47,572 nt of DNA from a virus (IMGVR_UViG_3300025310_000004:123759-171330); one strand, 5' to 3'. Shown: positions 9,119 through 24,486, counted from the first letter of the stretch. A program made the numbers and translations. The notes: generated from the letters alone by a model not told the origin.

Positions 9119-9715
9119 ATGGCGAAGGCCAAGTACCTGGCCTGGGTCGATCTTGAGACGACCGGGGTGGACGAGTTCGCAGACCCCATCCTTGAGGTCG
9201 GGCTCGTCATCACCACCGCGGAGCCTCCCTTCGAGGAGTTGGCCTCCTACGAAGCGGTCATCGATCCCAACCCGACCCGGTTCCCAGAGTGGCGTGATCG
9301 GATGAACGATTTCGTCACCAAGATGCACACCACCAACGGCCTGCTCTCCGACATCTCGTCGGCCGCAGCCAAGTCGCCCGAGCGCGTGCAGCAGGAGATG
9401 ATCCTCGCCCTGGCCGGTGTCGGCCGTGAGCACAACTTCATGCTCGCCGGTTCTGGCGTTGGTCACTTCGACCGCCGCTTCCTGCACGTCCAGATGCCCG
9501 AGTTCGAGGGGTGGCTGCAGTACCCGTGCCTCGACGTTGGCGTCATCCGGCGCGCCTTCGACTTCGCTGGTCGCAAGGACCTCGATGCCTTCGGACAGAC
9601 CTTCGAGACGAAGAACGACAAGCCCCACCGTGGGCTGGCTGACGTGCGTGACCACCTCAACGAGTTCCGCGCCTACGCCAACCTGTTCGCCTCGATCCCC
9701 GAGGTGGGTGCTTGA
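9119..9715 (+). CDS. orn: Oligoribonuclease-like DEDDh exonuclease
   Basis: WVDLETTG, ILEVG, MHTTNGL, LAGSGVGHFDRRFL, LDV, HRGLADV; RBS AAAGGAG. Confidence 0.8.
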   Translation: MAKAKYLAWVDLETTGVDEFADPILEVGLVITTAEPPFEELASYEAVIDPNPTRFPEWRDRMNDFVTKMHTTNGLLSDISSAAAKSPERVQQEMILALAGVGREHNFMLAGSGVGHFDRRFLHVQMPEFEGWLQYPCLDVGVIRRAFDFAGRKDLDAFGQTFETKNDKPHRGLADVRDHLNEFRAYANLFASIPEVGA

Positions 9716-10172: not shown

Positions 10173-10817
10173 ATGTGGATCGTCGCTCTCGTGGCCCTCC
10201 TTCTTGCGATCGTCGCCGTCGTCTCGGTGATCGCCGTCGTTCATGGCGAACGCAACCATCGCCTGATCGCCAAGGAGGAAGGTCTTGAGCCCCCTCCCGC
10301 AGACTTCACCGACATCGACTTCGATGATGACGACGAGTCGCTCTCTCCCGTGCCTGAGCGCGCCTCGGTCGAGGAGCACGATCTCGTCGCTCAGGAGTTC
10401 ACCGAGACGATCACCAAGACAGTCGAGGTCATCGAGATGGTGGCGACGCCGCTCGATGAGGCAGGGGCTCCATCCGGTGATCCCGTGGTGGTAGTCGAAC
10501 CAGAAGTGGTACCGGAAGCGGAACCGGAACCACGCCGCCACGAGGTCATCATCCCCAAGGAGATGGAGTACCTCACCGAGCCCGACGATGCGCTCGATGG
10601 GTTGGACGCTGCCCTCTTGGAGCACATGACCAAGGCTGTCCCCGACGAGGGACCCGTTGAGGAGATCGTCCTCACGGTTGTCGGCCCCGGCGACGAGACG
10701 CGTGAACACCCCGAGGACCCCGAGGTTGTCGTTCCTGTCGCTGATCCGATCAGGCGACTGCAAGAGGAGGCGGCCGGGAAGGCCCCCACCGAGTGGAAGC
10801 GGTGGAACAAGCCGTGA
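10173..10817 (+). CDS. Membrane-anchored acidic protein
   Basis: N-terminal hydrophobic helix, Asp/Glu/Pro-rich tail; ATG 7 nt after TACGAT. Confidence 0.65.
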   Translation: MWIVALVALLLAIVAVVSVIAVVHGERNHRLIAKEEGLEPPPADFTDIDFDDDDESLSPVPERASVEEHDLVAQEFTETITKTVEVIEMVATPLDEAGAPSGDPVVVVEPEVVPEAEPEPRRHEVIIPKEMEYLTEPDDALDGLDAALLEHMTKAVPDEGPVEEIVLTVVGPGDETREHPEDPEVVVPVADPIRRLQEEAAGKAPTEWKRWNKP

Positions 10818-11338
10818 GCGACATCAAACCAATGACGTGCCGAACCTGCGGAACGGAATTCGTGGGGGCTCACCCCAATGCGAGGTTCTGTTCCGGTGGA
10901 TGCAAGAGCGCGGCTAGGCGACAGGCCGCTCACCGATGGCGAGAAGCGAATCGCTCATTGGCGAACGAGCGCACGGCCAGGTGGTATGAGGCCAATCTAG
11001 AACGCGAGCGCGAGAAGGGACGTTCTTACTACCGCAAGAATTACACCCAGACCAAGCGGATGCAGATGCACGGTATGGAACCCGTACAGTTTGGCCTGCT
11101 CTGGGACGGTCAGGGAGGTAGGTGCGCTATCTGTGATCGGGCATTCGGGGCGGTGGCAGATGCCCACATCGACCATGATCACACCTGTTGTGATCGCACC
11201 ACTTCTTGCGGCAACTGCGTCCGGGGGCTCCTATGCAGGCGATGCAACCTGGCTCTGGGCCTCCTGGGCGATTCGCCTCAGGTTGCGGCATTGGCGGCTA
11301 ACTACCTTATGGAAACAAGGCTGGTCCCGCATGAGTAA
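10814..11338 (+). CDS. Endonuclease VII-family nuclease, probably a free-standing homing endonuclease
   Basis: QGGRCAIC..HIDHDH.CC...CG.CVRGLLC..CN.ALG; N-terminal CxxC/FCxxxC zinc module; AT-richer codons than neighbours. Confidence 0.85.
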   Translation: MSDIKPMTCRTCGTEFVGAHPNARFCSGGCKSAARRQAAHRWREANRSLANERTARWYEANLEREREKGRSYYRKNYTQTKRMQMHGMEPVQFGLLWDGQGGRCAICDRAFGAVADAHIDHDHTCCDRTTSCGNCVRGLLCRRCNLALGLLGDSPQVAALAANYLMETRLVPHE

Positions 11339-12125
11339 GCACAACATTGTCGAGGGGCTCCGGCCCCTGATGTCTCCGATCGAGAACGTCATCCACCTTC
11401 CGGGGAACGCCCGTCGAGGGGATGTCGAGGCCATCAGCAAGTCACTGAATCGTTTTGGCCAACACAAGCCCATCGTGGTGCGTCGTACGGGGGTGGATGA
11501 GCGGGGGTTGCCTGTTGGTGAAATCCTGATTGGCAACCACACCACCATGGCGGCCCGGAGACTGGGGTGGGATTCGATCGCCGTGGTATGGGTCGATGAA
11601 AGCATGGATGTGGCCAAGGCGCGGGCACTTGCCGACAACCGCACCGCCGAGTTGGGCACCTACGACGACGACGCCCTAGCCGCGATGATCGCCGATGTCC
11701 TAGAGGCCGACGAGGCGCTCCTAGAGGACGCGTCCTACACCCTGGACGACCTAGAGGCGCTCCTGGGGGAGACGGCTGCTCCCGCCGACCTCGATGGCGA
11801 CGAGGACGACGAAGAAGAACAGCCCCCCGGCCCCAATCCGCTAGCCGATCGCAAGCGAGCCGAGGCACCAGCCACTCGCCATGCCACCTTGTCGCTGTTC
11901 GACCGCTTCTTGGTCCCACCATTCACCGTGCTCAACGCACGAGAGGGTTGGTGGCAGGAGCGCAAGAACACCTGGATCGATCTCGGCCTAGAGGGCGAGT
12001 TGGGGCGCGACGACAAGCCGCGCACTTGGTTCCTGGCTGCCCCCCAGCATCACCACCACCCTGATCGCCCGTTCGTGCCCTACGGCGCAGCCGATGAGCG
12101 CAAGCGAGAGGACGACGATGACTGA
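11331..12125 (+). CDS. ParB-like protein carrying the N-terminal segment of the phage methyltransferase family
   Basis: NARRGDVEAI..SL.RFGQ.KPIVV..GNHT..AA..LGW..ALADNRT; C-terminal FDRFLVPPFTVLNAREGWWQERK motif. Confidence 0.8.
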   Translation: MSKHNIVEGLRPLMSPIENVIHLPGNARRGDVEAISKSLNRFGQHKPIVVRRTGVDERGLPVGEILIGNHTTMAARRLGWDSIAVVWVDESMDVAKARALADNRTAELGTYDDDALAAMIADVLEADEALLEDASYTLDDLEALLGETAAPADLDGDEDDEEEQPPGPNPLADRKRAEAPATRHATLSLFDRFLVPPFTVLNAREGWWQERKNTWIDLGLEGELGRDDKPRTWFLAAPQHHHHPDRPFVPYGAADERKREDDDD

Positions 12126-13689
12126 CGTTGCCCCCGAGGCCACCGAACCCGACCTCCTCTACGGCGATGGCGCCACCTCGATCTTCGATCCGGTCCTATG
12201 CGAGATCGCGTATCGCTGGTTCTGCCCACCCAAGGGCCTGATCCTCGACCCCTTCGCTGGTGGATCAGTGCGTGGCATCGTGGCCGCCAAGTTGGGCAGG
12301 CGATATATCGGAATCGATATTCGCAAGGTGCAGATCGACGCCAACTACCAGCAAGCCAAGGACCTTCTCACGGATGGGCTGGGGATCGTTCCTGACACCC
12401 CGGACGATGACATGCCGGAGATGACCCCGGTTGAGTTCATGGCCGAGCGCGGCATCTGGCTCAAGCGCGAGGACAAGTACGTCTACGCCGGGGTGCGTGG
12501 TGCGAAGGTTCGCACCTGCATGCACTTCGTCGCCGAAGCCAAGCAGCGTGGCGTTGGCGTCGTGACGGCCGGAAGTCGGATGTCGCCCCAGGTCAACTTC
12601 GTTGCCCAGATCGCCTATCAGATGGGCGTGAAGTGCTCGGTGCACGTTCCCTCCGGGCCACTGACTCCCGAGTTGATCGCCGCTCGGGCTGCAGGGGCCA
12701 AGATCACCCAGCACGACTACGGGTACAACTCGGTCATCATCGCCAGGGCACGCGAGGACGCCGAGCAGCGCGGCTGGATCGAGATTCCCTACGGCATGGA
12801 ATCCCAAGAGGCGGTGGACTACACCAAGCCCCAGGTGGCGAACATCCCCGCCGAGGCCAAGAGGCTGGTCAACGCCTGCGGATCGGGCATGACGCTCGCT
12901 GGCATCTTGTGGGGGCTCAAGGAGTCTGGCCGAGAACTCCCCGTCACTGCCGTGTGCGTGGGCAATGTCCCCGAGGAGCGCCTTGATCGCTGGGCTCCAC
13001 CAGAGTGGCGCGAGATGGTCGAGATCATCGATGAGGAGTCCGACTACCACGTTGCGGCGACTCGTACTGATCTCGACGGCGTGTTGGTGGATGCCTACTA
13101 CGAGGCCAAGTGCATCCCCTATCTCCGTGAGGGCGACTGCCTCTGGATCAGCGCCATCCGCCCCTCTGCCGTGCCAGCCATCGCTCCCGATCCAGTCTGG
13201 ATCGAAGGTGACGGCAAGGACGTGATGGACCTCGTTGACGAGCGGGCCGACATGATCTTCACCTGCCCCCCGTATGGGGACTTGGAGGTCTACAGCGACG
13301 ACCCGAGGGACCTGTCCAACATGGACTACCCGGAGTTCATCGCTGCCTTCGAGGAGATCATGTGCAACTCGGCCAAGCGCCTTGCCGATGATCGGTTCGC
13401 CGTCGTGGTGGTCGGGGACTTCCGCGACAAGGACGGCTACTACTACGGCTTCCCCGCCGACACCGTGAAGATCATGGAGCGGGCTGGCCTGAGGCTCTAC
13501 AACGAGGCTGTGTTGGTGACCCACGCAGCCAGCCTTCCCCTGCGTGCTGGGCGTCAGTTCGACGCGACTCGCAAGATGGGCAAGACCCACCAGAACGTGC
13601 TCTGCTTCGTCAAGGGCGACCCCCGTAAAGCCACGCGCGCATGTGGGCCTGTGATCGCCATGGACACCTCGGAAGGACCGGGCGAATGA
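12118..13689 (+). CDS. Amino-DNA-methyltransferase-like protein with an inserted PLP-dependent (fold type II, ACC deaminase/D-cysteine desulfhydrase-like) domain
   Basis: TSIFDPVLCE, DPFAGGS (SAM motif, 12247-12264), insert about 12421-13160 (TPVE..WLKREDK..GAKVR; ACGSGMTLAG; DAYYEAK), then W..GD, FTCPPY (13258-13275), KTHQNVL.F.KG. Confidence 0.85.
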   Translation: MTDVAPEATEPDLLYGDGATSIFDPVLCEIAYRWFCPPKGLILDPFAGGSVRGIVAAKLGRRYIGIDIRKVQIDANYQQAKDLLTDGLGIVPDTPDDDMPEMTPVEFMAERGIWLKREDKYVYAGVRGAKVRTCMHFVAEAKQRGVGVVTAGSRMSPQVNFVAQIAYQMGVKCSVHVPSGPLTPELIAARAAGAKITQHDYGYNSVIIARAREDAEQRGWIEIPYGMESQEAVDYTKPQVANIPAEAKRLVNACGSGMTLAGILWGLKESGRELPVTAVCVGNVPEERLDRWAPPEWREMVEIIDEESDYHVAATRTDLDGVLVDAYYEAKCIPYLREGDCLWISAIRPSAVPAIAPDPVWIEGDGKDVMDLVDERADMIFTCPPYGDLEVYSDDPRDLSNMDYPEFIAAFEEIMCNSAKRLADDRFAVVVVGDFRDKDGYYYGFPADTVKIMERAGLRLYNEAVLVTHAASLPLRAGRQFDATRKMGKTHQNVLCFVKGDPRKATRACGPVIAMDTSEGPGE

Positions 13690-14480
13690 ACTCCCTACTC
13701 AACGAGATCACGACAGTCTCGATCGATCTCATCGAGCCGCACCCCGAGAACCCACGCATCGGCGACATCGAGGCGATCAAGAAGTCGCTCAAGGCGAACA
13801 AGCAGTTCCAGCCCATCTTGGTGCAGGAGTCGTCTGGCTTCATCATCGCGGGCAACCACACCTACAAGGCAGCCGTCGAGTTGGGTTGGACCGAGGTCGA
13901 TGTCGCCTACATCGATGTCGATGACGCCAAGGCCAAGGCCATCATGTTGGCCGCCAACAAGACTGCCGACCTCGGCTCCTACGACGAGCGGCTTCTTGCT
14001 CAGTTGATCTCCGACATCACCTTCGAGGAGGAGGCTCTCCTAGAGGGCACCGGCTACTCCTCGGATGAGATCGATGACTTGCTCGCTGCCTCCATGGTTG
14101 ACATCCCCCTAGAGGAGCCAGGCGAGGGAGTGGATGTGGCGGCTGCGATGCTCGATCGCATCATGCCCACCGACGACGATGAGGACTACGACGACATCGA
14201 TGATGAGTCCGACGATCTCATCGACAGCATCGAAGGGGCATCCACCCCGGCCCCCATCACCAACACGGTGGGCGAGACGGCTGTTGAGTTCGTGATCTTC
14301 CGCTTCGGTGAGTTGCGGGCCAAGGTCCCTCGCCAGACCTACGAGCGGTTCATCAAGGGCTTCCTCAAGGAGCATCGCAACGACTTGGCCCTCGCCGGGG
14401 TAGCGGCGGCCATCAAGTTGGGCCTCGACTCCGAGAACGTCGAACCCGCCGTGGCCCAGGGGGCCGAACGCTGGCTTTGA
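13686..14480 (+). CDS. Second ParB-like protein
   Basis: HPENPRIGDIEAIKKSL..QFQPILV..IIAGNHTYKAA.ELGW..AANKTAD. Confidence 0.8.
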   Translation: MNSLLNEITTVSIDLIEPHPENPRIGDIEAIKKSLKANKQFQPILVQESSGFIIAGNHTYKAAVELGWTEVDVAYIDVDDAKAKAIMLAANKTADLGSYDERLLAQLISDITFEEEALLEGTGYSSDEIDDLLAASMVDIPLEEPGEGVDVAAAMLDRIMPTDDDEDYDDIDDESDDLIDSIEGASTPAPITNTVGETAVEFVIFRFGELRAKVPRQTYERFIKGFLKEHRNDLALAGVAAAIKLGLDSENVEPAVAQGAERWL

Positions 14481-14502
14481 TGTCGCGCCCATGCCGTACC
14501 AT
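14481..14502 (+). promoter_or_regulatory. Box-N8-(-10) phage promoter
   Basis: TGTCGCGC ccatgccg TACCAT. Confidence 0.65.
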
Positions 14503-14508
14503 GGGGTG

Positions 14509-15015
14509 ATGGATGGCGACCTGACCCCAGACCCGCATCAGGCGGAGATTCTTGAGGCTCTACTCGAAGCCGCCATGAAGGGCGACGCCGAGGAGTACGA
14601 CATCTTCCGTCGGGAGTGGGAGAGGTCGGACCCCATCGACTCCGAGGGCTGGCACATGCGCTTCTCTGAGAAGTCGCCCATCCCCTACACCGCGGTCGGG
14701 TTCTGCTACCACTGCCAGTCTCAGTGGGTAGTCTCTGGCGTCGCCTTCGGCCAGATGGTTCCTGGGCTGTCCCTCATGATCCACGTCACCGGGGAATGCC
14801 CCGAGATGGACGACTGCAACTGCTGGGTCGATGACACCGAGGGCGAGGATCGCCCCTTCGGCTACGCCCGTTGCCAGCGCTGCGACCGCGCCGAGCCGAT
14901 CTGCGAGTGCGATGGTGGCGTCGCCTACGGCCCGTGCGCCCTGTTCGAGCGTCACGAGCGAGAGAACGGGTTCGATTGGCACGAGCACACCGGAGATGTC
15001 TCACCCCCCGAGTAG
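14509..15015 (+). CDS. Cys-rich hypothetical protein, probably leaderless
   Basis: In-frame ATG 6 nt after -10 of promoter 14481; several CxxC. Confidence 0.55.
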   Translation: MDGDLTPDPHQAEILEALLEAAMKGDAEEYDIFRREWERSDPIDSEGWHMRFSEKSPIPYTAVGFCYHCQSQWVVSGVAFGQMVPGLSLMIHVTGECPEMDDCNCWVDDTEGEDRPFGYARCQRCDRAEPICECDGGVAYGPCALFERHERENGFDWHEHTGDVSPPE

Positions 15016-15018: not shown

Positions 15019-15037
15019 GTAGATCACACTCGACATG

Positions 15038-15059
15038 TGTCACAGAGACGTGATACTAT
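15038..15059 (+). promoter_or_regulatory. Box-N8-(-10) phage promoter (helicase, proximal)
   Basis: TGTCACAG agacgtga TACTAT. Confidence 0.75.
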
Positions 15060-15085
15060 GTCTGCAGACGAAGGGAGGTGCCTAC

Positions 15086-17932
15086 ATGAGCCAGATGTCC
15101 ATGGATTTGTTCGATTCCGAGCCGGAGCCGTCGGCCACGCCGACCCCGGTCGCCTCTGGAACGATCTCGCTGCGTCCTTACCAGGAGGAGGCGCTGGCAC
15201 ACATCGAGGAGGGGCGCCAGAGGGGCGTCCGCAAGCAACTCGGAGTTGCTGCTACGGGGCTGGGGAAAGGTTTGATGGTTGGGACCGAAGTTCTCAAGTC
15301 GGATGGCTCTTGGTGTCCGGTCGAGAATCTTGAGGTGGGCGACTTCGTGGTGGGGGTGGATGGTCAACCGACGAAGATCGAAGGGGTGTTTCCCCGAGGG
15401 GAACAGCCCTGCTTTGAGGTGACCACCGACGATGGAGCCTCTGTGGTGGTGGACGCAGACCATCTTTGGACGGTTGCCACCGATTCTGACATCACCCGCG
15501 GGCTCCCCTGGCGCACTCTGGAAACGGCCGACCTCTACTCTCGTGGCATCACCTCCCCTGAGGGGCGACGCCGATGGAGGCTTCCCGTTGTTGCACCCAT
15601 CGAATTTGATGCTCAACCGGAACTCCCGATCGATCCGTACATCCTCGGCGTCATCTTGGGGGACGGCTCCATCACCCAAGCCACCGTTGAGTTCTGTCCG
15701 GGGGACGCTTGGATCGCTGACAAGGTGGAGACCTTGTTGCCTGAGGGGTTCTCCCTGAGGCCCATCACCTCAGCAGATCGCGCCACCTCTTATCACATCA
15801 AGGACTCCGGTTCCTCTCGGGCGACACCCAACCGCATGAAGGGTGCCCTTGCCGATCTGGGTCTCTGGGGTCTCGGTTCGCTTGAGAAGTTCGTCCCCGA
15901 TGCCTACCTGACCGCCTCTGTCGCGGACCGTAGGGCACTGTTGGCTGGGTTGATGGATTGTGACGGGTGGGCTGGCAAGTCCACAGTGCAGTTCACCACG
16001 TCGTCGCCACGCCTGGCATCTGACGTGAAGCGACTCGCCGAGTCTCTCGGGACCATTGTCCGCGTTGGCAGCAAAATCCCCACCTACACCTACGGGGACG
16101 AGAAACTGCGGGGGGCGCGCGCCTACGCCGTGAATCTTCGTGGAGGTGGATGCCCCTTCACGCTGCCCCGCAAGGTAGATGCATGGGCGCAGACCAAGCG
16201 GCTCGGCGCTACCCGCAAGATCGAATCCATCGTGCCGGTGGGGCCACGAGAGACGGTGTGTATCAAGGTGTCGGCCGACGATGGCCTGTTCGTCACCGAG
16301 CATCACATCGTCACTCACAACACCATCATGTTCTCCGCCCTGGCGCAGCGCATGAACGTTCCCACCCTGGTGCTCGCTCATCGTGATGAGTTGATCTCCC
16401 AGGCCGCCGACAAGATGCGCCAGGTCTGGCCTGGCGCCGACATCGGCGTGGTCAAGGCAGAGCGCAACGAGATCGATCATCAGGTCGTCGTGGCGAGCGT
16501 CCAGACGCTTGCCCGTTCCAGCCGCCGCGATCAGATTCCCGCCGACAAGTTCGGGCTGGTGATCATCGATGAGGCACACCACGCCAAGGCAGTGTCCTAC
16601 ACCAACATCATCGAGCACCTGAATGCTGGCGATGAGGACGGCCCGCTCCTGGTCGGCGTGACAGCCACGCCAGACCGCGGCGACGGCAAGGGCCTGGTGG
16701 ATGTGTTCGATGAGATCACCTTCACCTACGACATGCTGTGGGGCATCCGCTCCGGCTACCTGAGTGACCTGCGTGGCCTGCGCGTCCACCTCGATGCCGA
16801 CTTCTCCAAGGTCAAGATTCGCAAGGGCGACTACGACGCTGGCCAGGCCGGGCAGATGCTCGAAGATGCAGACGCCCCCTCCCTGATCGCCGACGCGTGG
16901 ATCAAGTACGCGCAGGACCGCAAGACCCTGGTGTTCACCCCCACGGTTGCCACTGCAGAGATGGTCACCGCCGAGTTGGTTGGCCGGGGCGTGAGTGCAT
17001 CGATGGTGTCCGGCGAGACTCCCATCGATGAGCGACGAGACATCCTCGCTCGCTACGCCAAGGGTGAGATCAGGGTCATCGCCAACTGCGCCGTTCTCAC
17101 CGAGGGTTTCGATGACCCCGGCACCTCGTGCATCGTGGTTGCTCGACCCACGCAGTCACGGGCTCTCTACACCCAGATGATCGGGCGCGGCACTCGCCGC
17201 CACCCCGACAAGCATGACTGCCTCGTCATCGATGTCGTTGGCGCATCGGCCAACCATTCGCTGGTGACCATCCCGTCGCTGTTTGGCATCAAGAAGGAGA
17301 ACCCCTTCGAGAACGCCGAGCGCACCGTGGCCGAGGCCATGGATGAGCAGGTCGAGGACGAGATCAAGCGCGGTGAACTCAAGGCCACCGAGGCTGACCT
17401 GTTCCGCAAGGTTCTCGACTCCCCCATCGCCTGGGTGCACTACAGCAACCGCATGTCTCAGACCTGCTACCTGTGCGGCCTTGGTGACAAGGAAGTCGGC
17501 TCCGTTGTCATCGAGCCCATCCCCTACGACGTGAGTCAGCCAGCGGAAGCGCCGACTCGCTACCACTGCTTCCAGCAGTGGGAGGACAACTTCGTTCCGG
17601 TAGGCCAGCCTGGCATCACCATGCGTCCTGATGGCTCTGGCTTCCGCACCCTGATCACCAACGTGGACCTTGAGATGGCTCAGGGTGTGGGTGAGGACTT
17701 CATCCGCAAGAACGGTGCTGCGGCACTCACAGATCGCAACGCCGCATGGCGCAAGGCGAAGCCTTCCCAGAAGCAGTTGGATTTCGCTGAGAACTTGGGC
17801 ATCGTTGTCGATCCTTCGTGGGACAAGGGGCAGGTCAGTGATGCCATCAGCGCCAAGAAGGAAGCCATCAATGACCGTCGCCGCAATCGCCCCGCATGGG
17901 CGAAGAACAAGGGAAGGAACAACCGTCGATGA
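15086..17932 (+). CDS. Superfamily 2 (DEAH/Res-like) helicase with intein
   Basis: LRPYQ, Walker A ATGLGK|T, IIDEAHH, TATP, LTEGFD, QMIGRGTR. Confidence 0.92.
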   Translation: MSQMSMDLFDSEPEPSATPTPVASGTISLRPYQEEALAHIEEGRQRGVRKQLGVAATGLGKGLMVGTEVLKSDGSWCPVENLEVGDFVVGVDGQPTKIEGVFPRGEQPCFEVTTDDGASVVVDADHLWTVATDSDITRGLPWRTLETADLYSRGITSPEGRRRWRLPVVAPIEFDAQPELPIDPYILGVILGDGSITQATVEFCPGDAWIADKVETLLPEGFSLRPITSADRATSYHIKDSGSSRATPNRMKGALADLGLWGLGSLEKFVPDAYLTASVADRRALLAGLMDCDGWAGKSTVQFTTSSPRLASDVKRLAESLGTIVRVGSKIPTYTYGDEKLRGARAYAVNLRGGGCPFTLPRKVDAWAQTKRLGATRKIESIVPVGPRETVCIKVSADDGLFVTEHHIVTHNTIMFSALAQRMNVPTLVLAHRDELISQAADKMRQVWPGADIGVVKAERNEIDHQVVVASVQTLARSSRRDQIPADKFGLVIIDEAHHAKAVSYTNIIEHLNAGDEDGPLLVGVTATPDRGDGKGLVDVFDEITFTYDMLWGIRSGYLSDLRGLRVHLDADFSKVKIRKGDYDAGQAGQMLEDADAPSLIADAWIKYAQDRKTLVFTPTVATAEMVTAELVGRGVSASMVSGETPIDERRDILARYAKGEIRVIANCAVLTEGFDDPGTSCIVVARPTQSRALYTQMIGRGTRRHPDKHDCLVIDVVGASANHSLVTIPSLFGIKKENPFENAERTVAEAMDEQVEDEIKRGELKATEADLFRKVLDSPIAWVHYSNRMSQTCYLCGLGDKEVGSVVIEPIPYDVSQPAEAPTRYHCFQQWEDNFVPVGQPGITMRPDGSGFRTLITNVDLEMAQGVGEDFIRKNGAAALTDRNAAWRKAKPSQKQLDFAENLGIVVDPSWDKGQVSDAISAKKEAINDRRRNRPAWAKNKGRNNRR
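15269..16321 (+). mobile_element. Class 3 intein with LAGLIDADG endonuclease in helicase Walker A (351 aa, starts with Gly)
   Basis: Removal restores GKT; DADHLW (block B Trp), TVCIKV (block F Cys), VTHN|T; LGDG and LAGLMDCDG motifs. Confidence 0.88.
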
Positions 17933-20166: not shown

Positions 20167-20802
20167 ATGTCCACGAACAAGGGCGGCGCCCCATCCAGGT
20201 TCAACGAGGACCGGGCCGAGAAGTTGCTGCAGGCCGTGCGCGGTGGCAACTACTTGGAGACGGCTGCGCGCTATGCGGGCATCTCGTATCAGACCTTGCG
20301 TCGCTGGTTGCTCAAGGCGGACGAGCCGGACGCACCACCGGAGTATGTCGCCTTCAAGGAACAGTTGGAGAAGGCCCGAGCCGACGCTGAGGTGGCTGCC
20401 CTAGCCAAGATTCAGAAGGCTGCCTCAGAGGGCGCCTGGCAGGCTTCTGCGTGGTACCTAGAGCGTTCCTGGCCTGAGCGCTGGGGGCGCAGGGACACCA
20501 ACCGTGTCGAGTTGGTGGGCGACGGCGGCGGCCCGGTCAAGGTGGTGGCTGGCATCGAGTTGGACGACGCGTCGATGAACGCCTTGGCTCAGCGTCTAGC
20601 CTCCCGAGCCGCCTTCGAGCAGCGCGAGATCGAGGAGGCCCAGATCATCGAGGAGTACCGGGGTGAGTTGGAGGCTGGCGATCCGCTAGCCGTGCCTGAC
20701 GACATCTCCGGGCTCGACGGTGAGCGCTATGGGGAGGCGATCCCAGAGAGCCCATCTGACGATGATGGGTGGTGGAATGGCGACGACGAGGATCGCACCT
20801 GA
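20167..20802 (+). CDS. terS: Terminase small subunit
   Basis: HTH (GNYLETAARYAGISYQTLRRWL), WQASAWYLER..PERWG motif; upstream of TerL. Confidence 0.8.
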   Translation: MSTNKGGAPSRFNEDRAEKLLQAVRGGNYLETAARYAGISYQTLRRWLLKADEPDAPPEYVAFKEQLEKARADAEVAALAKIQKAASEGAWQASAWYLERSWPERWGRRDTNRVELVGDGGGPVKVVAGIELDDASMNALAQRLASRAAFEQREIEEAQIIEEYRGELEAGDPLAVPDDISGLDGERYGEAIPESPSDDDGWWNGDDEDRT

Positions 20803-20912
20803 TGCCAGGTGGAGCAGGAAAGGCCAAGAGGTCGTGCCCCATGTGCAAGCCTTACAAGTTCGCGGGCAACATTCGTAGGTTGACCGAGAAGGTTGATCTC
20901 GATGAGCGATGA
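20802..20912 (+). CDS. 36-aa CxxC peptide between terS and terL (not in ORF track)
   Basis: MPGGAGKAKRSCPMCKPYKFAGNIRRLTEKVDLDER; TGATG-coupled to terS, overlaps terL start. Confidence 0.5.
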   Translation: MPGGAGKAKRSCPMCKPYKFAGNIRRLTEKVDLDER

Positions 20913-23900
20913 GCACACCGGCTTCGTAGCGATCCCTCCCGATCTCCTGGCCCACGCCACAGCCGAGGAGCGCGAGGCGTACTACCAGTACCTCCTTGGC
21001 AACGTCATCGCCGCGGATGAGTGGGAACCGTGGATCAGGATGATCTTCCCCCAGGTGGCGGAGAAGCCGTTCTCTGAGGGTCACCAGAAGTTCTGGGAAT
21101 GGGTCTGGCAGGTCGAGCCAGGCACTCGCCCCAAGCCATGGGTGTCGATCTGGCCTCGTGGTCATGGTAAGCGCCTAAAGAGTTCGACACCAATCCTCAC
21201 GACGGAGGGGTGGACGACGCAAGGACAACTCAACATTGGCGACGAGGTGTTTGGACCAGACGGAACCCCAGCCGCCGTCACATGGGTTGGACCAGAAACG
21301 ATGCGCCCCCTCTACAGGGTTCGGTTCACTGACGGGACCGAACTCGTTGCCGATCCCGAGCACGAATGGACGGTGCTGGATCGCGGGCCATACGAGTGGC
21401 GCACGCTTGAGACTCAGGAGATCGCAGCGCAGCGGTACTACTCGGGCGGGCGCGCCAGGTTCATGCTGCCACATCGAGATGCTATTCAGGCGCCACGTCG
21501 AGACCTGTTGATCGACCCCTACCTGCTCGGCTACTGGCTAGGCGACGGAAACCACAAGACTGGTGTGCTGGCCGCTGGCTCGATGGATGACGCTAATGAG
21601 GTTGCACTCAACATCGAGTCCCGTGGCGAGTTGATCAAGAACCGCTACACGCAGGCCAACACGGGATGCAACTACATCGTCATTGACGGTCTACGCAATC
21701 GGCTATCCGCGCTCGGCCTTCTTGGCAACAAGCACATTCCCAGCGGCTACCTCACCTCATCCGAGGAGCAGCGGCGTGCACTTCTGGCCGGGCTGGTCGA
21801 TTCCGATGGACACGTTGACAAGAAGCGCGGCAGGGTCCGCTACGTGTCGCACGACCAGACTCTCGCTGAGGCGGTTCGACTGCTCGCCAGGACGCTTGGC
21901 TACAACGCCACCGTCTGGAGTGAAATCGATGATCGTGAGCCACATCCCGTCACCGATCTAGATGGCGTCGTGACGATGGTGTCTACGGCTGGCACTCGAT
22001 GGGTTGCATCATGGACACCACACGACGGTCTCGGCCAAGGGATGCTCGCCAGGAAGGTTGTCCCCACCTACGCCAAGCGCCAGCGGGTTGGGATTGAGTC
22101 GATCACCCCGGTCGAGTCAGAACCCGGCCTCTGTATCGAGGTCGATCGTGATGATGGCCTCTACCTTGCCGGTAGCGACCTGATCCCCACCCACAATTCC
22201 ACCTCGTCGGAGTTGGCCGTCGTCGTGCTCGCCGCACGTCGCAAGCGTCGCTACGGCATCTACGTCTCCGAGACGCAGGACCAGGCCGACGACCACGTTG
22301 CCAATGTGGCTGCCATGTTGGAGTCGCCCACGATCGAGTTGGCCTACCCCGACCTCGGTGAGCGCCTCATGGGCAAGTTCGGAACGTCCAAGGGCTGGCG
22401 GCGCAACCGCATCCGTACCAAGACCGGCTTCACCCTCGATGCCATGGGCCTCGACTCCGCTGCCCGAGGCGTCAAGTTGGAGGACCAGCGTCCCGACTTC
22501 ATGGTCTTTGACGACATCGATGGCGAGTTGGACACCGATGAGCGCGTCGAGAAGAAGATCAAGACCATCACCCGCAAGTTGCTCCCGGCTGGTTCTCAGG
22601 ACTGCGCCATCTTGATGGTGCAGAACCTCGTGCACGAGAACTCGATCTTCGCTCGCCTCTCGGATGGTCGGGCCGACTTCCTGCGTGACCGCATCGTCTC
22701 TGGCCCAATCCCTGCCATCTGGGACCTTGAGTACGAGGAACTAGAGGGGAAGTTCGTCATCACGGGCGGTGAGCCATCGTGGCCCGAGGGATTCCCTATC
22801 CCGTCGTGCCAGTTGCTCATGAACGACATTGGCCTCTCCGCCTTCCTGGCCGAGTGCCAGCACGAGACGAAGCCACCCGAGGGCGACATCTTCAACCACA
22901 TCGCCTTCGTGCGCGTCGAGCACCACGAGGTTCCGCCGCTTCGTCGTGCGGTGGTGTGGGTTGACCCTGCCGTCACCTCCACCGACTCGTCGGACTCCAT
23001 GGGCATCCAATGTGATGGGCTCGGAGTGGACGACAAGATTTACCGCCTGTTCTCGTGGGAGAACCGCTCGACGCCGTACCGAGCCATCCACCTCGCGATC
23101 GAGAAGGCCCTTGAGTACGGAGCCGACACCGTGGGTGTCGAGACGAACCAGGGTGGCGACCTGTGGCGAGTGGTGTACGACCAGGCATGTGAGGACATCC
23201 GCAACGAGCGCGGTGACCGCCACATGAAGATGCCCCGCTACCGCCAGGAGAAGGCCACCGCTGACCTCGGATCGAAGGTCACTCGCGCTGAGCGCATGTT
23301 GGTGGACTACGAGCGTGGCCTATTCGTACACGTCGAGGGAACTCACCACACGTTGGAGATGGCGCTACGCCGGTTCCCCAAGGTCAAGCCGTTCGACCTC
23401 GTAGACGCCTGCCTGGTGGCTGGCACCCTCGTGGCCACTCCCGACGGGGAGGTGCCGATCGAGTCGATCGTCCCAGGGGATTTCGTCTGGACGCGTCAGG
23501 GGGCGAAGCGTGTTCTCAACGCCGGGCCGACGCGGTTCGATGCCGAGGTCTACGAACTCGTCACGGAAGATGGACGCTCGGTGGTGGGAACCGGAGACCA
23601 TCTTGTCTGGACCCATGAGTGTGGATGGGTTCCATTGGCCCTCGCTGCCGGGCTGACTGTCAGTATTGGCTCATGGACCATCCCGTCGAGGTTGAATACG
23701 CCGGTCGGCGCTATCGCCGCTATCCCAATGCCAAACAGCGCAGCCATCGGGTCTACTACGTGCCCCTCGGGCCAGGGGATCGAATCTACTTGCACCGAAA
23801 GGTCTACATCGATCACTTCGGCCCGATTCCCGAGGGGTGGCATGTTCACCACGTCGATGGTGACCCCTTCAACAACGACCCCGGAAATCTCAGGGCCATT

Positions 23901-24486
23901 TCACCAGGGGAACATCGTTCAACCCATGGGTCAACATGGACAGACCCATCCGACATGGAACGGCATCTCGCAGCCATCCGAACCTTGGCCGCCAAGTGGC
24001 ACGGATCGCCAGAAGGGCTCCAATGGCATTCCGACCACGGACGCTCATCCTGGGAGGGCCGAGCCGAGCATCAACTCCAATGTGTTTGGTGTGGAGAGGC
24101 ATTCTCGTCGCTTGTGGCTTCCACGGGGTTCTGCTCTCAGCGATGCCGATACCGGAAGTTCGAGGCCGATGAATCAAACAAGGACGCCCGGACCTGCGAG
24201 GAGTGCGGAGGCGGGTTCCTCGCTGAACGACGGAAGGCCACCCGCTTTTGCGGCGTCACTTGTCGTAATCGTTCAACCTCGCGGAAGCAGCGCCGTGGTG
24301 TATGACCTGGAAGTTGAGGACGCTCACGAGTTCTTGGCTGATGGGGTTGTTGTGCACAACTGCTATTGGTCGTGGGCCTACTTGGCCGGGCCACTTCACC
24401 GTCGCAAGGCGAAGGTGCGTTCCTCGGCTCGCAAGTACCTCAATGCCGCCGTTGGCATCGGCAACGCTCCTGCCGGGTTCGGCTAG
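20902..24486 (+). CDS. terL: Terminase large subunit with two inteins
   Basis: Walker A PRGHGK|ST, Walker B FDDID, nuclease VDPA and VETNQGG, FP...DLVDA|C. Confidence 0.92.
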   Translation: MSDEHTGFVAIPPDLLAHATAEEREAYYQYLLGNVIAADEWEPWIRMIFPQVAEKPFSEGHQKFWEWVWQVEPGTRPKPWVSIWPRGHGKRLKSSTPILTTEGWTTQGQLNIGDEVFGPDGTPAAVTWVGPETMRPLYRVRFTDGTELVADPEHEWTVLDRGPYEWRTLETQEIAAQRYYSGGRARFMLPHRDAIQAPRRDLLIDPYLLGYWLGDGNHKTGVLAAGSMDDANEVALNIESRGELIKNRYTQANTGCNYIVIDGLRNRLSALGLLGNKHIPSGYLTSSEEQRRALLAGLVDSDGHVDKKRGRVRYVSHDQTLAEAVRLLARTLGYNATVWSEIDDREPHPVTDLDGVVTMVSTAGTRWVASWTPHDGLGQGMLARKVVPTYAKRQRVGIESITPVESEPGLCIEVDRDDGLYLAGSDLIPTHNSTSSELAVVVLAARRKRRYGIYVSETQDQADDHVANVAAMLESPTIELAYPDLGERLMGKFGTSKGWRRNRIRTKTGFTLDAMGLDSAARGVKLEDQRPDFMVFDDIDGELDTDERVEKKIKTITRKLLPAGSQDCAILMVQNLVHENSIFARLSDGRADFLRDRIVSGPIPAIWDLEYEELEGKFVITGGEPSWPEGFPIPSCQLLMNDIGLSAFLAECQHETKPPEGDIFNHIAFVRVEHHEVPPLRRAVVWVDPAVTSTDSSDSMGIQCDGLGVDDKIYRLFSWENRSTPYRAIHLAIEKALEYGADTVGVETNQGGDLWRVVYDQACEDIRNERGDRHMKMPRYRQEKATADLGSKVTRAERMLVDYERGLFVHVEGTHHTLEMALRRFPKVKPFDLVDACLVAGTLVATPDGEVPIESIVPGDFVWTRQGAKRVLNAGPTRFDAEVYELVTEDGRSVVGTGDHLVWTHECGWVPLALAAGLTVSIGSWTIPSRLNTPVGAIAAIPMPNSAAIGSTTCPSGQGIESTCTERSTSITSARFPRGGMFTTSMVTPSTTTPEISGPFHQGNIVQPMGQHGQTHPTWNGISQPSEPWPPSGTDRQKGSNGIPTTDAHPGRAEPSINSNVFGVERHSRRLWLPRGSALSDADTGSSRPMNQTRTPGPARSAEAGSSLNDGRPPAFAASLVVIVQPRGSSAVVYDLEVEDAHEFLADGVVVHNCYWSWAYLAGPLHRRKAKVRSSARKYLNAAVGIGNAPAGFG
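21172..22197 (+). mobile_element. Class 3 intein with LAGLIDADG endonuclease in TerL Walker A (342 aa, starts with Arg)
   Basis: Removal restores GKS; DPEHEW, LCIEV, PTHN|S; LGDG and LAGLVDSDG motifs. Confidence 0.88.
23410..24360 (+). mobile_element. Class 1 intein in TerL nuclease domain, with no in-frame endonuclease
   Basis: CLVAGTLV start, TGDH block B, VYDLEV block F, VVHN|C end; middle about 200 codons are S/T/P/G-rich and lack recognisable motifs. Confidence 0.88.
23673..24305 (+). CDS. HNH endonuclease nested out of frame inside the second TerL intein
   Basis: YLHRKVY..HFGPIPEGWHVHHVDGDPFNNDPGNL..EH plus two CxxC/FCxxxC zinc modules; alternative starts 23619 and 23625. Confidence 0.88.
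   Translation: MDHPVEVEYAGRRYRRYPNAKQRSHRVYYVPLGPGDRIYLHRKVYIDHFGPIPEGWHVHHVDGDPFNNDPGNLRAISPGEHRSTHGSTWTDPSDMERHLAAIRTLAAKWHGSPEGLQWHSDHGRSSWEGRAEHQLQCVWCGEAFSSLVASTGFCSQRCRYRKFEADESNKDARTCEECGGGFLAERRKATRFCGVTCRNRSTSRKQRRGV

What the first reader, a model, noticed from the sequence alone, without database searches (positions are those of the whole stretch)
11331..14480. ParB / DNA methyltransferase with an inserted PLP enzyme / ParB: candidate new DNA-modification system
Seen: ORF 12118-13689 is an amino-MTase-type protein (DPFAGGS, GIDIR, FTCPPY, KTHQNVL). An intact domain of about 245 aa (about 12421-13160) sits between the SAM-binding and catalytic halves. It has fold-type II PLP enzyme hallmarks: TPV, WLKRED, Schiff-base Lys in GAKVR (12505), phosphate loop ACGSGMTLAG and D.YYEAK. 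ParB-like genes are translationally coupled on both sides. Established: ParB-MTase pairs recur in phage modification loci, and PLP enzymes act on amino-acid-base adducts in phage thymidine hypermodification (ViI and M6 type). Those pathways also need hmdU synthesis, kinase and transferase genes, none of which I see here. Inference: the MTase fold may transfer a SAM-derived group (methyl or 3-amino-3-carboxypropyl) that the fused PLP domain then eliminates, deaminates or decarboxylates, giving a non-canonical base, with the ParB proteins targeting the enzyme to DNA.
Basis: partly seen in the sequence, partly recalled or inferred. Interest (0 to 1): 0.9.

Follow-up and report, generated by a model that had tools for sequence, protein, structure and literature searches.

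The report
DNA methylase with built-in PLP decarboxylase
A large actinobacterial phage encodes a ParB-linked DNA-methyltransferase-type enzyme with a complete vitamin-B6 (PLP) enzyme inserted in it; that PLP part belongs to the only family known to trim amino acids attached to phage DNA, so this widespread, unstudied module may put a SAM-derived aminopropyl-type group, not just a methyl, on the phage genome.

Summary
Window 12118-13689 encodes an amino-methyltransferase (PF01555) with a roughly 265-aa fold-type II PLP domain (PF00291) inserted between motifs II and III. ParB genes on both sides are coupled by start-stop overlaps. The upstream ParB ORF also carries the N-terminal piece of the methyltransferase, so a ParB-MTase fusion is split here.

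It is not a chimera: 826 clusters at 50% identity match the insert. In related phages the same PLP module is inserted, fused C-terminally, or encoded as a separate gene beside the same MTase.

The main new result is that the PLP module belongs to the family of ViI gp226 and M6 gp52, the proven PLP decarboxylases of amino-acid-thymidine adducts in DNA (hhalign 98.4% and 96.1%, with Lys130 aligned to K92 and K36). The genome has no hmdU synthase, 5-hmdU DNA kinase or aGPT-Pplase.

Best reading (about 0.45): the MTase fold puts the 3-amino-3-carboxypropyl group of SAM on a DNA base, and the PLP module decarboxylates it to aminopropyl.

Main rival: plain methylation with a helper PLP enzyme. PLP-less relatives have the same MTase core.

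I found no paper on this module. This scan had already noted it on other DNA with the same reading (e1-5344216, e1-3426519).

The parts
11331..12125 (+). ParB N-terminal domain (GNARRGD 11403-11423, GNHT 11532-11543), an acidic linker, and the N-terminal 'LFDRFLVPPF...W..RK..W...GELGR' element of the methyltransferase (11895-12008). This is the split-off front part of a ParB-MTase fusion.
   Evidence: PF02195 is weak (17.5 bits), but phrog_723 ParB-like gives E 1.8e-37. The C-terminal element aligns with the same element inside the fused proteins phiFL3A gp36, prophiT37-1 gp72 and Pam4 gp70. The same split is seen in relatives L010 and L012-L014; L011 is fused.
12118..12384 (+). Methyltransferase front half: motif X (SIFDPVLCE), motif I (DPFAGGS, 12247-12267) and motif II (GIDIR, 12310-12324).
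   Evidence: PF01555 stretch 35-74 matches profile positions 178-217. These residues are invariant or nearly so in 96 homologues.
12385..13182 (+). Inserted PLP domain of the ViI gp226 / M6 gp52 family (type 1). It has the Schiff-base Lys130 (12505-12507), SPQ (12583-12591), GYNS (12721-12732), QVANIP (12832-12849), the phosphate loop GSGM (12880-12891) and Tyr328-Glu329 in YYEAK (13096-13110).
   Evidence: PALP scores 48.6 bits. phrog_3650 gives E 9.9e-27 and phrog_7093 E 1.5e-8. hhalign against ViI gp226 gives Prob 98.4, E 5.8e-15; against M6 gp52, Prob 96.1. The fold matches 4d8t, 1j0a and 1f2d. Lys, the Gly loop and the Tyr-Glu pair are 98-100% conserved.
13183..13689 (+). Methyltransferase back half: motif III (PVWIEGDG, 13192-13215), motif IV with Cys in place of D/N/S (FTCPPY, 13258-13275), and motifs V-VIII including KTHQNVL (13582-13602).
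   Evidence: phrog_12517 and phrog_498 match residues 355-512. Alignment to insert-less relatives. CPPY is present in 109 of 110 aligned sequences that have a residue at that column.
13686..14480 (+). Second ParB-like protein: an N-terminal ParB domain, an acidic linker and a 70-aa C-terminal domain of unknown fold. Its ATGA start overlaps the MTase stop.
   Evidence: PF02195 scores 29.9 bits (above the 26.3 cut-off) and phrog_723 gives E 4e-41. It is kept at this position only in the closest relatives L010-L012.
20167..24486 (+). Context only: terminase small subunit (20167-20802) and large subunit with two inteins (20893-24486). The module therefore lies in the 'ParB-terminase' neighbourhood, 5.7 kb upstream.
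   Evidence: phrog_4102 terS gives E 1.5e-32 and phrog_38 terL gives E 5e-54. Intein domains are found by Pfam.

Best explanation
This is a two-step, post-replicative DNA hypermodification module built from three parts.

(1) A ParB-tethered enzyme with a circularly permuted amino-methyltransferase fold binds SAM and flips out a target base. That the fold and the SAM motifs are present is shown; the activity is inferred.

[quoted passage not shown] This step is inferred and is the weakest link.

(3) The PLP domain, inserted at a fixed position in the same polypeptide, decarboxylates the appended alpha-amino acid while it hangs on the DNA. This leaves a positively charged 3-aminopropyl group. 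The step is inferred from homology to ViI gp226 and M6 gp52, which do exactly this on serine- and glycine-thymidine adducts.

A variant with the same end product is that the PLP domain first decarboxylates SAM and the MTase fold then transfers aminopropyl.

The ParB domains probably load or activate the enzyme on double-stranded DNA near the time of packaging. The expected benefit is protection from host nucleases and partial charge neutralisation of packaged DNA.
For: The insert is a confidently folded, intact PLP enzyme. The AF2 model has pLDDT 90.8 and pTM 0.87 and matches the DCyD/ACCD fold at E 5e-14. The Schiff-base Lys, the phosphate loop and the Tyr-Glu pair are 98-100% conserved in 96-121 homologues.

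The insert belongs to the phage family whose two characterised members are DNA-level decarboxylases. The type-1 profile against ViI gp226 gives Prob 98.4, E 5.8e-15 over 242 columns. Lys130 aligns to K92, and the SPQ, GYNS, QVANIP, YE.K and FWIVG motifs are shared. Against M6 gp52 the result is Prob 96.1, with the Lys aligned to K36. P0001 hits phrog_3650 at 1e-26 and phrog_7093 at 1.5e-8. M6 gp52 defines phrog_7093, and the separate-gene 'type 2' PLP partners hit it at 6.6e-55. A tree rooted on E. coli DcyD puts all the phage modules in one clade. The biochemistry of gp226 and gp52 is in PMC8989533.

The functional link between MTase and PLP is shown by repeated, different gene arrangements. 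The PLP module is found inserted, fused C-terminally, as a separate gene upstream and as a separate gene downstream. Two PLP subtypes each occur both inserted and separate. A remote SPPY relative of the MTase lies next to a type-1 PLP gene in Staphylococcus phage Alsa_1.

No other partner gene is conserved; the neighbours are terminase and portal genes. The genome lacks thymidylate-synthase-like, aGPT-Pplase2 and 5-HMUDK genes. SAM is therefore the only evident source of an alpha-amino acid.

There is chemical precedent. In microcin C biosynthesis the SAM-dependent enzyme MccD transfers acp, and the PLP decarboxylase domain of MccE turns it into aminopropyl (PMC11350588). A phage ParB has been shown to activate a DNA-modifying enzyme on dsDNA (PMC13229309).
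Against: The MTase core shows no position that separates PLP-linked from PLP-less members. About 70 positions are at least 90% identical in both groups.

PLP-less members are common. All 80 of the best GTDB prophage loci, and 10 viral loci with enough flanking sequence, have no PLP gene. Nor do they carry another tailoring enzyme in its place. The simplest reading of that majority is ordinary methylation.

No member of this MTase clade has been characterised. The insert sits in the loop before strand 3, on the side of the Rossmann sheet away from the ligand-binding ends of the strands. I had no model coordinates, so I could not measure whether the PLP site faces the SAM or base pocket. Reaction specificity can shift within PLP families, so homology to decarboxylases does not prove decarboxylation.
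Confidence: 0.45

Rival explanations
1. The MTase makes ordinary m6A or m4C, as its PLP-less relatives presumably do. The PLP module then works on a small molecule of the methylation cycle. It could remove the product inhibitor S-adenosylhomocysteine or homocysteine by gamma-elimination. Or it could destroy or decarboxylate free SAM to starve SAM-dependent host defences or to feed polyamine synthesis for packaging.
For: MTase cores with and without PLP are indistinguishable at conserved positions. Most family members in prophages lack PLP. The Tyr-Glu pair and the SPQ motif resemble true ACC deaminase, whose chemistry runs through the same intermediates as gamma-elimination. SAM and SAH are themselves alpha-amino acids joined to a nucleoside.
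Against: The PLP module is closer to the DNA-acting phage decarboxylases than to any cellular small-molecule enzyme. With the same profile, ViI gp226 scores 62.7 bits, Montesquieu gp41 97 bits and E. coli DcyD 48 bits, and all phage members form one clade. A helper acting on a diffusible metabolite would not need repeated physical fusion into the MTase in four different arrangements. The separate-gene type-2 proteins are strongly basic (median pI 9.7, net charge +10), as expected of a DNA-binding protein. The phage has no MetK or MTA/SAH nucleosidase gene to suggest a SAM-cycle theme.
Confidence: 0.25
2. The PLP module does act on a DNA-linked amino-acid adduct, but with another reaction type (deamination, elimination or transamination) or on an adduct from another source. 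The final base is then something other than an aminopropyl derivative. One option is attack on a pyrimidine C5 through the conserved Cys of CPPY.
For: Homology to gp226 and gp52 fixes the substrate class better than the reaction. The active site keeps the ACC-deaminase-type residues Ser, Gln, Tyr and Glu. Motif IV has an invariant Cys where amino-methyltransferases have D, N or S. Thiolate attack on C6 is how C5-methyltransferases and aGPT-Pplases activate pyrimidines (PMC8989533).
Against: Both characterised family members are decarboxylases. No alternative amino-acid transferase is conserved near the module or found in this genome. The Alsa_1 relative, which also has a PLP neighbour, has SPPY rather than CPPY.
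Confidence: 0.15
3. The PLP domain has lost catalysis and serves as a structural, DNA-recognition or regulatory insert in an ordinary methyltransferase.
For: The domain is trimmed to about 255 aa, against about 330 aa in ACC deaminase and D-cysteine desulfhydrase. It sits at a permissive site, the junction of the circular permutation.
Against: The Schiff-base Lys, the phosphate-binding GSGM loop, Ser156, Gln158 and Tyr328-Glu329 are 98-100% conserved. They are better conserved than most of the MTase. The same residues are kept between the two PLP subtypes, which share only about 21% identity.
Confidence: 0.05

Closest known systems
ViI gp226 (phrog_3650) and M6 gp52 (phrog_7093): PLP-dependent decarboxylases of O-serinyl- and C-alpha-glycinyl-thymidine in phage DNA (Lee et al., NAR 2021, PMC8989533)
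   Same: Same protein family. There is full-length profile similarity, the Schiff-base Lys is at the same column (K92, K36 and Lys130), and an acidic residue follows the catalytic-site Tyr. The SPQ, GYNS, QVANIP and FWIVG motifs are shared with gp226. These are phage-encoded enzymes that act after replication.
   Different: gp226 and gp52 work downstream of dUMP hydroxymethylase, 5-hmdU DNA kinase and aGPT-Pplase2, which attach free serine or glycine to thymine. None of those genes is in this genome or in the related loci. Here the only conserved partner is an MTase-fold enzyme, into which the PLP domain is physically inserted.
ParB-fused phage amino-methyltransferases of the 'ParB-terminase large subunit locus' (Iyer et al. 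2013, as cited in PMC4738411), for example Enterococcus phage phiFL3A gp36 and Mycobacterium prophage prophiT37-1 gp72
   Same: Same MTase clade: 42-60% identity over the core, the same permuted motif order, the same CPPY motif IV, and the same N-terminal PPF...W..RK..W element after ParB. The position upstream of terS/terL is also the same.
   Different: Those proteins have a short loop where this one has a 265-aa PLP enzyme. Here the fusion is also split into two ORFs and followed by a second ParB gene.
MccD plus the MccE N-terminal domain of microcin C biosynthesis (aminopropylation; PMC11350588)
   Same: Same proposed chemical logic. A SAM-dependent transferase donates the 3-amino-3-carboxypropyl group, and a PLP decarboxylase converts it to 3-aminopropyl.
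   Different: This is analogy only; I tested no homology. The MccE N-terminal domain belongs to another group of PLP decarboxylases, and the acceptor is a peptidyl-nucleotide phosphoramidate, not DNA.
ACC deaminase / D-cysteine desulfhydrase (PDB 1f2d, 1tzk, 4d8t; TIGR01275)
   Same: Same fold (Foldseek E 5e-14). The residues equivalent to Lys51, Ser78, Gln80 and Tyr294-Glu295 are present.
   Different: The score is far below the NCBIfam cut-offs (26.8 against 289 bits). The domain is about 75 residues shorter, and HTGG/HLGG is replaced by SAIR. It clusters with phage DNA-level decarboxylases, not with cellular enzymes.
ParB activator of phage thymine dioxygenase 5mYOX176 (O'Toole et al., PNAS 2026, PMC13229309)
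   Same: A phage ParB homologue encoded next to a post-replicative DNA-modifying enzyme. That ParB was shown to be needed for activity on double-stranded DNA.
   Different: The partner enzyme is different (an Fe/2OG dioxygenase). Whether either ParB here activates or merely tethers the enzyme is untested.

Membership tests
Phage DNA-level PLP decarboxylases (ViI gp226 / M6 gp52; phrog_3650, phrog_7093) | Full-length sequence or profile similarity to the characterised members | tested here: met
   hhalign Prob 98.4, E 5.8e-15 against gp226. Prob 96.1, E 2.9e-9 against gp52. phrog_3650 E 9.9e-27 and phrog_7093 E 1.5e-8.
Phage DNA-level PLP decarboxylases (ViI gp226 / M6 gp52; phrog_3650, phrog_7093) | Schiff-base lysine at the column of gp226 K92 and gp52 K36, plus the phosphate loop and a Tyr-acid pair | tested here: met
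   Lys130 aligns to K92 and K36. GSGM and YE are conserved at 98-100%.
Phage DNA-level PLP decarboxylases (ViI gp226 / M6 gp52; phrog_3650, phrog_7093) | Co-occurrence with dUMP hydroxymethylase, 5-hmdU DNA kinase and aGPT-Pplase2 (the thymidine hypermodification cluster) | tested here: not met
   The 171-kb genome has no PF00303 match, no aGPT-Pplase2 homologue and no 5-HMUDK homologue. None is conserved in the 81 related loci.
Phage DNA-level PLP decarboxylases (ViI gp226 / M6 gp52; phrog_3650, phrog_7093) | Decarboxylation of an amino acid attached to a base in polymeric DNA | not testable with these tools
   This needs biochemistry or nucleoside mass spectrometry.
N6/N4 amino-methyltransferases (PF01555, beta-class relatives) | Pfam model above the gathering score, with the SAM-binding motif I | tested here: met
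   46.6 bits against a cut-off of 26.7. DPFAGGS is invariant or nearly so.
N6/N4 amino-methyltransferases (PF01555, beta-class relatives) | Catalytic motif IV (D/N/S)PP(Y/F/W) | tested here: not met
   The motif is (S/T)CPPY, with Cys in 109 of 110 aligned sequences that have a residue at that column. It is the same in insert-less relatives.
N6/N4 amino-methyltransferases (PF01555, beta-class relatives) | Beta-class motif order (IV-VIII before X, I-III) | tested here: not met
   The order is permuted relative to the closest solved relative, 2zie. The SAM half is N-terminal and the catalytic half C-terminal.
N6/N4 amino-methyltransferases (PF01555, beta-class relatives) | Methyl transfer to an exocyclic amine of DNA | not testable with these tools
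   I found no characterised member of this clade. BCE_0392 gave weak m6dA (PMC3459991), but its clade is unverified. At least one other Bacillales ParB fusion in the sample is a DPPY beta-class enzyme.
ACC deaminase / D-cysteine desulfhydrase (TIGR01274, TIGR01275) | Curated family score | tested here: not met
   26.8 bits against a cut-off of 289.4 (TIGR01275), and 22.2 against 392 (TIGR01274).
ACC deaminase / D-cysteine desulfhydrase (TIGR01274, TIGR01275) | Fold, and active-site residues Lys51, Ser78, Tyr294 and Glu295 | tested here: met
   Foldseek E 5e-14 and target TM-score 0.67. The aligned motifs are GAKVR, SPQ and YE.
ParB/Srx N-terminal domain proteins | PF02195 above the gathering score | tested here: inconclusive
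   The downstream ORF passes (29.9 against 26.3). The upstream ORF is below the cut-off (17.5) but matches ParB PHROGs at E 1.8e-37.
ParB-terminase (Tls) modification locus | Modification gene beside ParB and next to the terminase genes | tested here: met
   In the window, terS and terL lie 5.7 kb downstream. In the surveyed related loci the recurring neighbours of the module are TerL and portal genes.

The most novel reading that the evidence does not exclude
The permuted CPPY 'methyltransferase' is a DNA aminocarboxypropyl transferase. Together with its built-in PLP decarboxylase it writes a 3-aminopropyl group, a tethered polyamine-like cation derived wholly from SAM, onto a base of the phage genome around the time of packaging. 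That would be a DNA hypermodification pathway independent of 5-hydroxymethylpyrimidines. It would be present in hundreds of phage lineages across Actinobacteria, Cyanobacteria and Proteobacteria, and PLP-less relatives might leave the acp group untrimmed.
Probability: 0.35. Interest if true: 0.9.

Novelty: new variant of a known kind. Interest (0 to 1): 0.78.

Why it matters
Every amino-acid-derived DNA hypermodification whose pathway is described in the papers read here starts from 5-hydroxymethyl-dU made before replication, followed by a kinase and an aGPT-Pplase transferase. This module has none of these. It pairs the tailoring decarboxylase of those pathways with a SAM-dependent MTase fold. 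If the prediction holds, SAM would serve as an amino-acid donor to DNA, as it does for tRNA, rRNA and microcin C. A new non-canonical base would be added to the list, with consequences for restriction evasion, DNA packaging, and sequencing and enzymatic tools. The idea can be tested at once. Cultured phages carry the module (Vincenzo and AlanGrant on M. smegmatis, vB_EliS_R6L, Pam4), and Pam4 gp70 has all parts in one polypeptide. If only methylation is found instead, the repeated fusion of a PLP enzyme into a methyltransferase still needs an explanation.

Tried and rejected
- Assembly chimera: rejected, because hundreds of independent homologues share the architecture.
- Part of a thymidine (hmdU) hypermodification cluster: rejected for this genome.
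- Link to phosphorothioation or PAPS reductase, suggested by gp7 of phage R6L: no PAPS-reductase gene in the genome and none conserved in the related loci.
- Phage-encoded SAM-cycle genes (MetK, MTA/SAH nucleosidase): none found.
- Residues separating PLP-linked from PLP-less MTase cores: none found. My first 'none' class was wrong, because BLAST with the type-1 probe missed type-2 PLP genes (for example L078). I redid the classification with HMMs.
- Alternative tailoring enzymes in PLP-less loci: none; the neighbours are small ORFs, terS and terL.
- Whether the experimentally studied ParB-MTase BCE_0392 belongs to this clade: unresolved. The paper by Xu et al. is not held. In a sample of 301 Bacillales genomes, 1 had the full CPPY type and 9 matched only the ParB part; the one of these I could read is a DPPY beta-class enzyme.
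- The Iyer et al. 2013 paper could not be read.
- Complex prediction (MTase-PLP, the ParB front piece and the second ParB): five attempts did not complete, so there is no result.
- Ten literature searches found no paper on an MTase-PLP module.

Full report
**Setting.** The window is the last 47.5 kb of a 171,330-bp IMG/VR virus record that CheckV rates as complete. GC content is about 63%. Earlier notes of this scan call it a large phage of uncultured actinobacteria.

Around the finding, the + strand encodes the following:
- an RNase T-like exonuclease (9119-9715)
- an endonuclease VII (10793-11338)
- the three genes of the finding (11331-14480)
- a Cys-rich ORF (14491-15015)
- a helicase with an intein (15035-17932)
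- a sliding-clamp-like processivity factor (17896-19080)
- terS (20167-20802)
- terL with two inteins (20893-24486)

The ORF at 12118-13689 gives a 523-aa protein.
- Pfam finds PALP on residues 111-283 (48.6 bits, cut-off 35). It finds N6_N4_Mtase in two separate stretches (46.6 bits, cut-off 26.7).
- Alignment with insert-less relatives was made against phiFL3A gp36, the Microcystis phage Mae-JY30 MTase and prophiT37-1 gp72. It shows an insertion of about 265 aa at residues 90-355 (12385-13182). The insertion lies between the helix after motif II and strand 3 (PVWIEGDG).
The Lys codon is exactly at 12505.
- AlphaFold2 with a 96-sequence alignment gives pLDDT 90.8 and pTM 0.87. The insert matches D-cysteine desulfhydrase and ACC deaminase structures (Foldseek E 5e-14, target TM-score 0.67).
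- Both neighbours are ParB-like and overlap the central gene: ATGACTGA upstream and ATGA downstream. Each has a plausible ribosome-binding site.

**One correction to the anatomy.** The upstream ORF ends with LFDRFLVPPFTVLNAREGWWQERKNTWIDLGLEGELGR. In phiFL3A gp36, prophiT37-1 gp72 and Pam4 gp70 this element lies inside the same polypeptide, between ParB and the SAM-binding motif. So the window carries a ParB-MTase fusion that has been split into two overlapping ORFs. The same split occurs in relatives at 65-84% identity (L010, L012-L014), while L011 is fused. It is therefore an evolved fission, not a sequencing error.

**The MTase is a permuted relative of beta-class enzymes.** In the closest solved relative, 2zie, the catalytic half is N-terminal and the SAM half C-terminal. 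Here the order is reversed. The PLP insert sits at the junction created by that permutation. Motif IV reads (S/T)CPPY in 109 of 110 aligned sequences that have a residue at that column, and also in insert-less relatives. It thus departs from the (D/N/S)PP(Y/F) motif that defines amino-methyltransferases.

**It is not a chimera, and the link is functional.**
- A word-indexed search gave 374 proteins. Nearly all of the 120 best carry both PF00291 and PF01555, and many also carry ParB.
- An exhaustive search with the insert alone gave 826 clusters at 50% identity, 350 of them below E 1e-30.
- Cultured carriers are Pseudanabaena phage Pam4 (gp70, 829 aa, ParB fused), Erythrobacter phages vB_EliS_R6L and ZS04, and Mycobacterium phages Vincenzo and AlanGrant.
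- I classified 81 loci (80 from IMG/VR plus the window) with HMMs of two PLP subtypes, and 50 carry a PLP module. The module occurs in four arrangements: inserted, fused to the MTase C-terminus (L032, L037), a separate gene just upstream (L035, L038, L039), and a separate gene just downstream (L043, L069, L078 and others).
- Type 1 (about 255 aa, as in the window) and type 2 (about 234 aa, about 21% identical) each occur both inserted and separate. L033 and L034 have type 2 inserted.
- A remote SPPY relative of the MTase lies 1 kb from a type-1 PLP gene in Staphylococcus phage Alsa_1.
- Repeated, independent gene fusions of this kind argue that the two enzymes work together.
- No other gene family is conserved with them. 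The neighbours are three kinds of TerL plus portal proteins. This is the 'ParB-terminase locus' of Iyer et al., as cited in PMC4738411.

**What the PLP module is.**
- By sequence against the PDB it is only weakly like ACC deaminase (E 2e-4), and it fails the NCBIfam cut-offs by a wide margin.
- It does keep the ACC-deaminase-type residues: the Lys in GAKVR, Ser-Pro-Gln at the Ser78-Asn79-Gln80 position, and Tyr-Glu where D-cysteine desulfhydrase has Tyr-Thr.
- These residues and the GSGM phosphate loop are 98-100% conserved, better than most of the MTase. They are also kept between the two subtypes. A dead scaffold is therefore unlikely.

**The decisive lead: homology to proven DNA-level decarboxylases.**
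- P0001 hits phrog_3650 (E 1e-26) and phrog_7093 (E 1.5e-8).
- A phage hit at 27% identity is Glutamicibacter phage Montesquieu gp41. It lies between an aGPT-Pplase2 gene and two 5-hmU-kinase-type genes, which is a classical thymidine hypermodification cluster.
- Montesquieu gp41 is homologous to ViI gp226 (BLASTP E 2e-27) and to 337 ViI-like phage proteins.
- M6 gp52 defines phrog_7093 (E 2e-159), and the type-2 partner proteins hit that family at E 6.6e-55.
- Profile comparison of the type-1 alignment gives Prob 98.4 (E 5.8e-15, 242 columns) with ViI gp226 and Prob 96.1 with M6 gp52. Lys130 falls on K92 and K36, the lysines named in the paper (PMC8989533).
- gp226 shares further motifs with the window protein that cellular relatives lack: SPQ, GYNS, QVANIP, YE.K and FWIVG.
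- A tree rooted on E. coli DcyD places all phage modules in one clade, with type 2 next to M6 gp52.
- Lee et al. showed that gp226 and gp52 bind PLP and decarboxylate O-serinyl-thymidine and C-alpha-glycinyl-thymidine in polymeric DNA.

**What the module lacks.** The 171-kb genome has no thymidylate-synthase-like gene, no aGPT-Pplase2, no 5-hmdU DNA kinase, no PAPS reductase and no second PALP gene. The related loci have none of these either. The only conserved partner of the decarboxylase homologue is an MTase fold with an intact SAM motif. SAM is the only alpha-amino acid that such an enzyme handles.

**Most likely mechanism.**
- Alternatively, the PLP module makes decarboxy-SAM first, which gives the same product.
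- MccD and MccE do exactly this on microcin C (PMC11350588).
- A phage ParB has been shown to activate a neighbouring DNA-modifying enzyme on dsDNA (PMC13229309). This suggests a role for the ParB parts.
- What is shown: the architecture, the conservation, the family membership and the gene linkage.
- What is inferred: the acp transfer, the decarboxylation, the target atom and the role of ParB.

**Why confidence stays moderate.**
- The MTase cores of PLP-linked and PLP-less members share about 70 positions at 90% identity or more, and I found no discriminating position.
- PLP-less members are common. All 80 of the best GTDB prophage loci lack the module. Their neighbours are only small ORFs, terS and terL.
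- Either the whole clade transfers something other than methyl, or the core simply methylates and the PLP module has another job. That job could concern SAH or SAM.
- No member of the clade has been characterised. The one studied ParB-MTase, BCE_0392, gave weak m6dA in E. coli and no activity in vitro (PMC3459991). I could not place it in this clade, and at least one other Bacillales ParB fusion in the sample is a DPPY beta-class enzyme.
- The strongly basic charge of the separate type-2 proteins (median pI 9.7) fits DNA binding. The window's own insert, however, is acidic (pI 5.1).

**The second ParB.** The gene at 13686-14480 is kept only in the closest relatives, L010-L012, where it is followed by the same helicase. 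It is a lineage-specific addition, not a family-wide component. A complex prediction to test its binding could not be run.

**Novelty.** Ten literature searches found no description of an MTase-PLP module. The thymidine hypermodification paper mentions neither ParB nor such fusions. After I had reached this reading, a look-up showed that the scan had flagged the same module on other genomes. Other follow-up agents had come to the same interpretation, and a reviewer raised the same caveat about PLP-less relatives. Those notes are not independent evidence. I class the finding as a new variant of a known kind: phage post-replicative hypermodification with a PLP tailoring step, but with a different, SAM-based way of attaching the group.

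Noticed in passing
window 15035-17932: The helicase gene (ResIII/Helicase_C, phrog_16) carries an intein with a LAGLIDADG homing endonuclease near its N-terminus (Hint and LAGLIDADG_3 domains). The relative L010 has the same helicase without the intein (609 aa).
   Followed up: partly
window 20893-24486: The terminase large subunit (phrog_38) is interrupted by two inteins (LAGLIDADG_3/Hom_end at about residues 282-346; Hint_2 and Intein_splicing at 840-1156). I did not examine that claim.
   Followed up: partly
L012:7881-10688 (protein P0007): A close relative of the MTase-PLP protein (86% identity over the insert) is 895-935 aa long. The extra length comes from an intein with a LAGLIDADG endonuclease (PF14528, PF14890). 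So even this modification enzyme is an intein target in these phages.
   Followed up: no
window 14491-15015: A 174-aa Cys- and His-rich ORF lies between the second ParB and the helicase. It has no Pfam or PHROG match and is shared only with relative L012.
   Followed up: partly
L091:1870-4630 (Staphylococcus phage Alsa_1): A Twort-like staphylococcal phage has a permuted MTase with TSPPYFNLELY (22% identical to the CPPY clade) about 1 kb upstream of a stand-alone type-1 PLP gene. The gene scores 139.5 bits with the type-1 HMM. This looks like an independent instance of the MTase-PLP pairing in Firmicutes phages.
   Followed up: partly
G000:C1:4539-4682 (minus strand; outside the window): A second N6/N4-type SAM-binding motif (38% identity to residues 28-75 of the MTase) lies in a 506-aa open frame near the other end of the phage genome. 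It is probably another DNA methyltransferase.
   Followed up: no
L090:2916-6032 (Glutamicibacter phage Montesquieu): This is a compact thymidine hypermodification cluster in an actinophage: aGPT-Pplase2, a PLP decarboxylase homologue annotated as 'ACC deaminase', and two Ploopntkinase3 genes annotated as 'ABC transporter' and 'thymidylate kinase'. All three annotations look wrong.
   Followed up: partly
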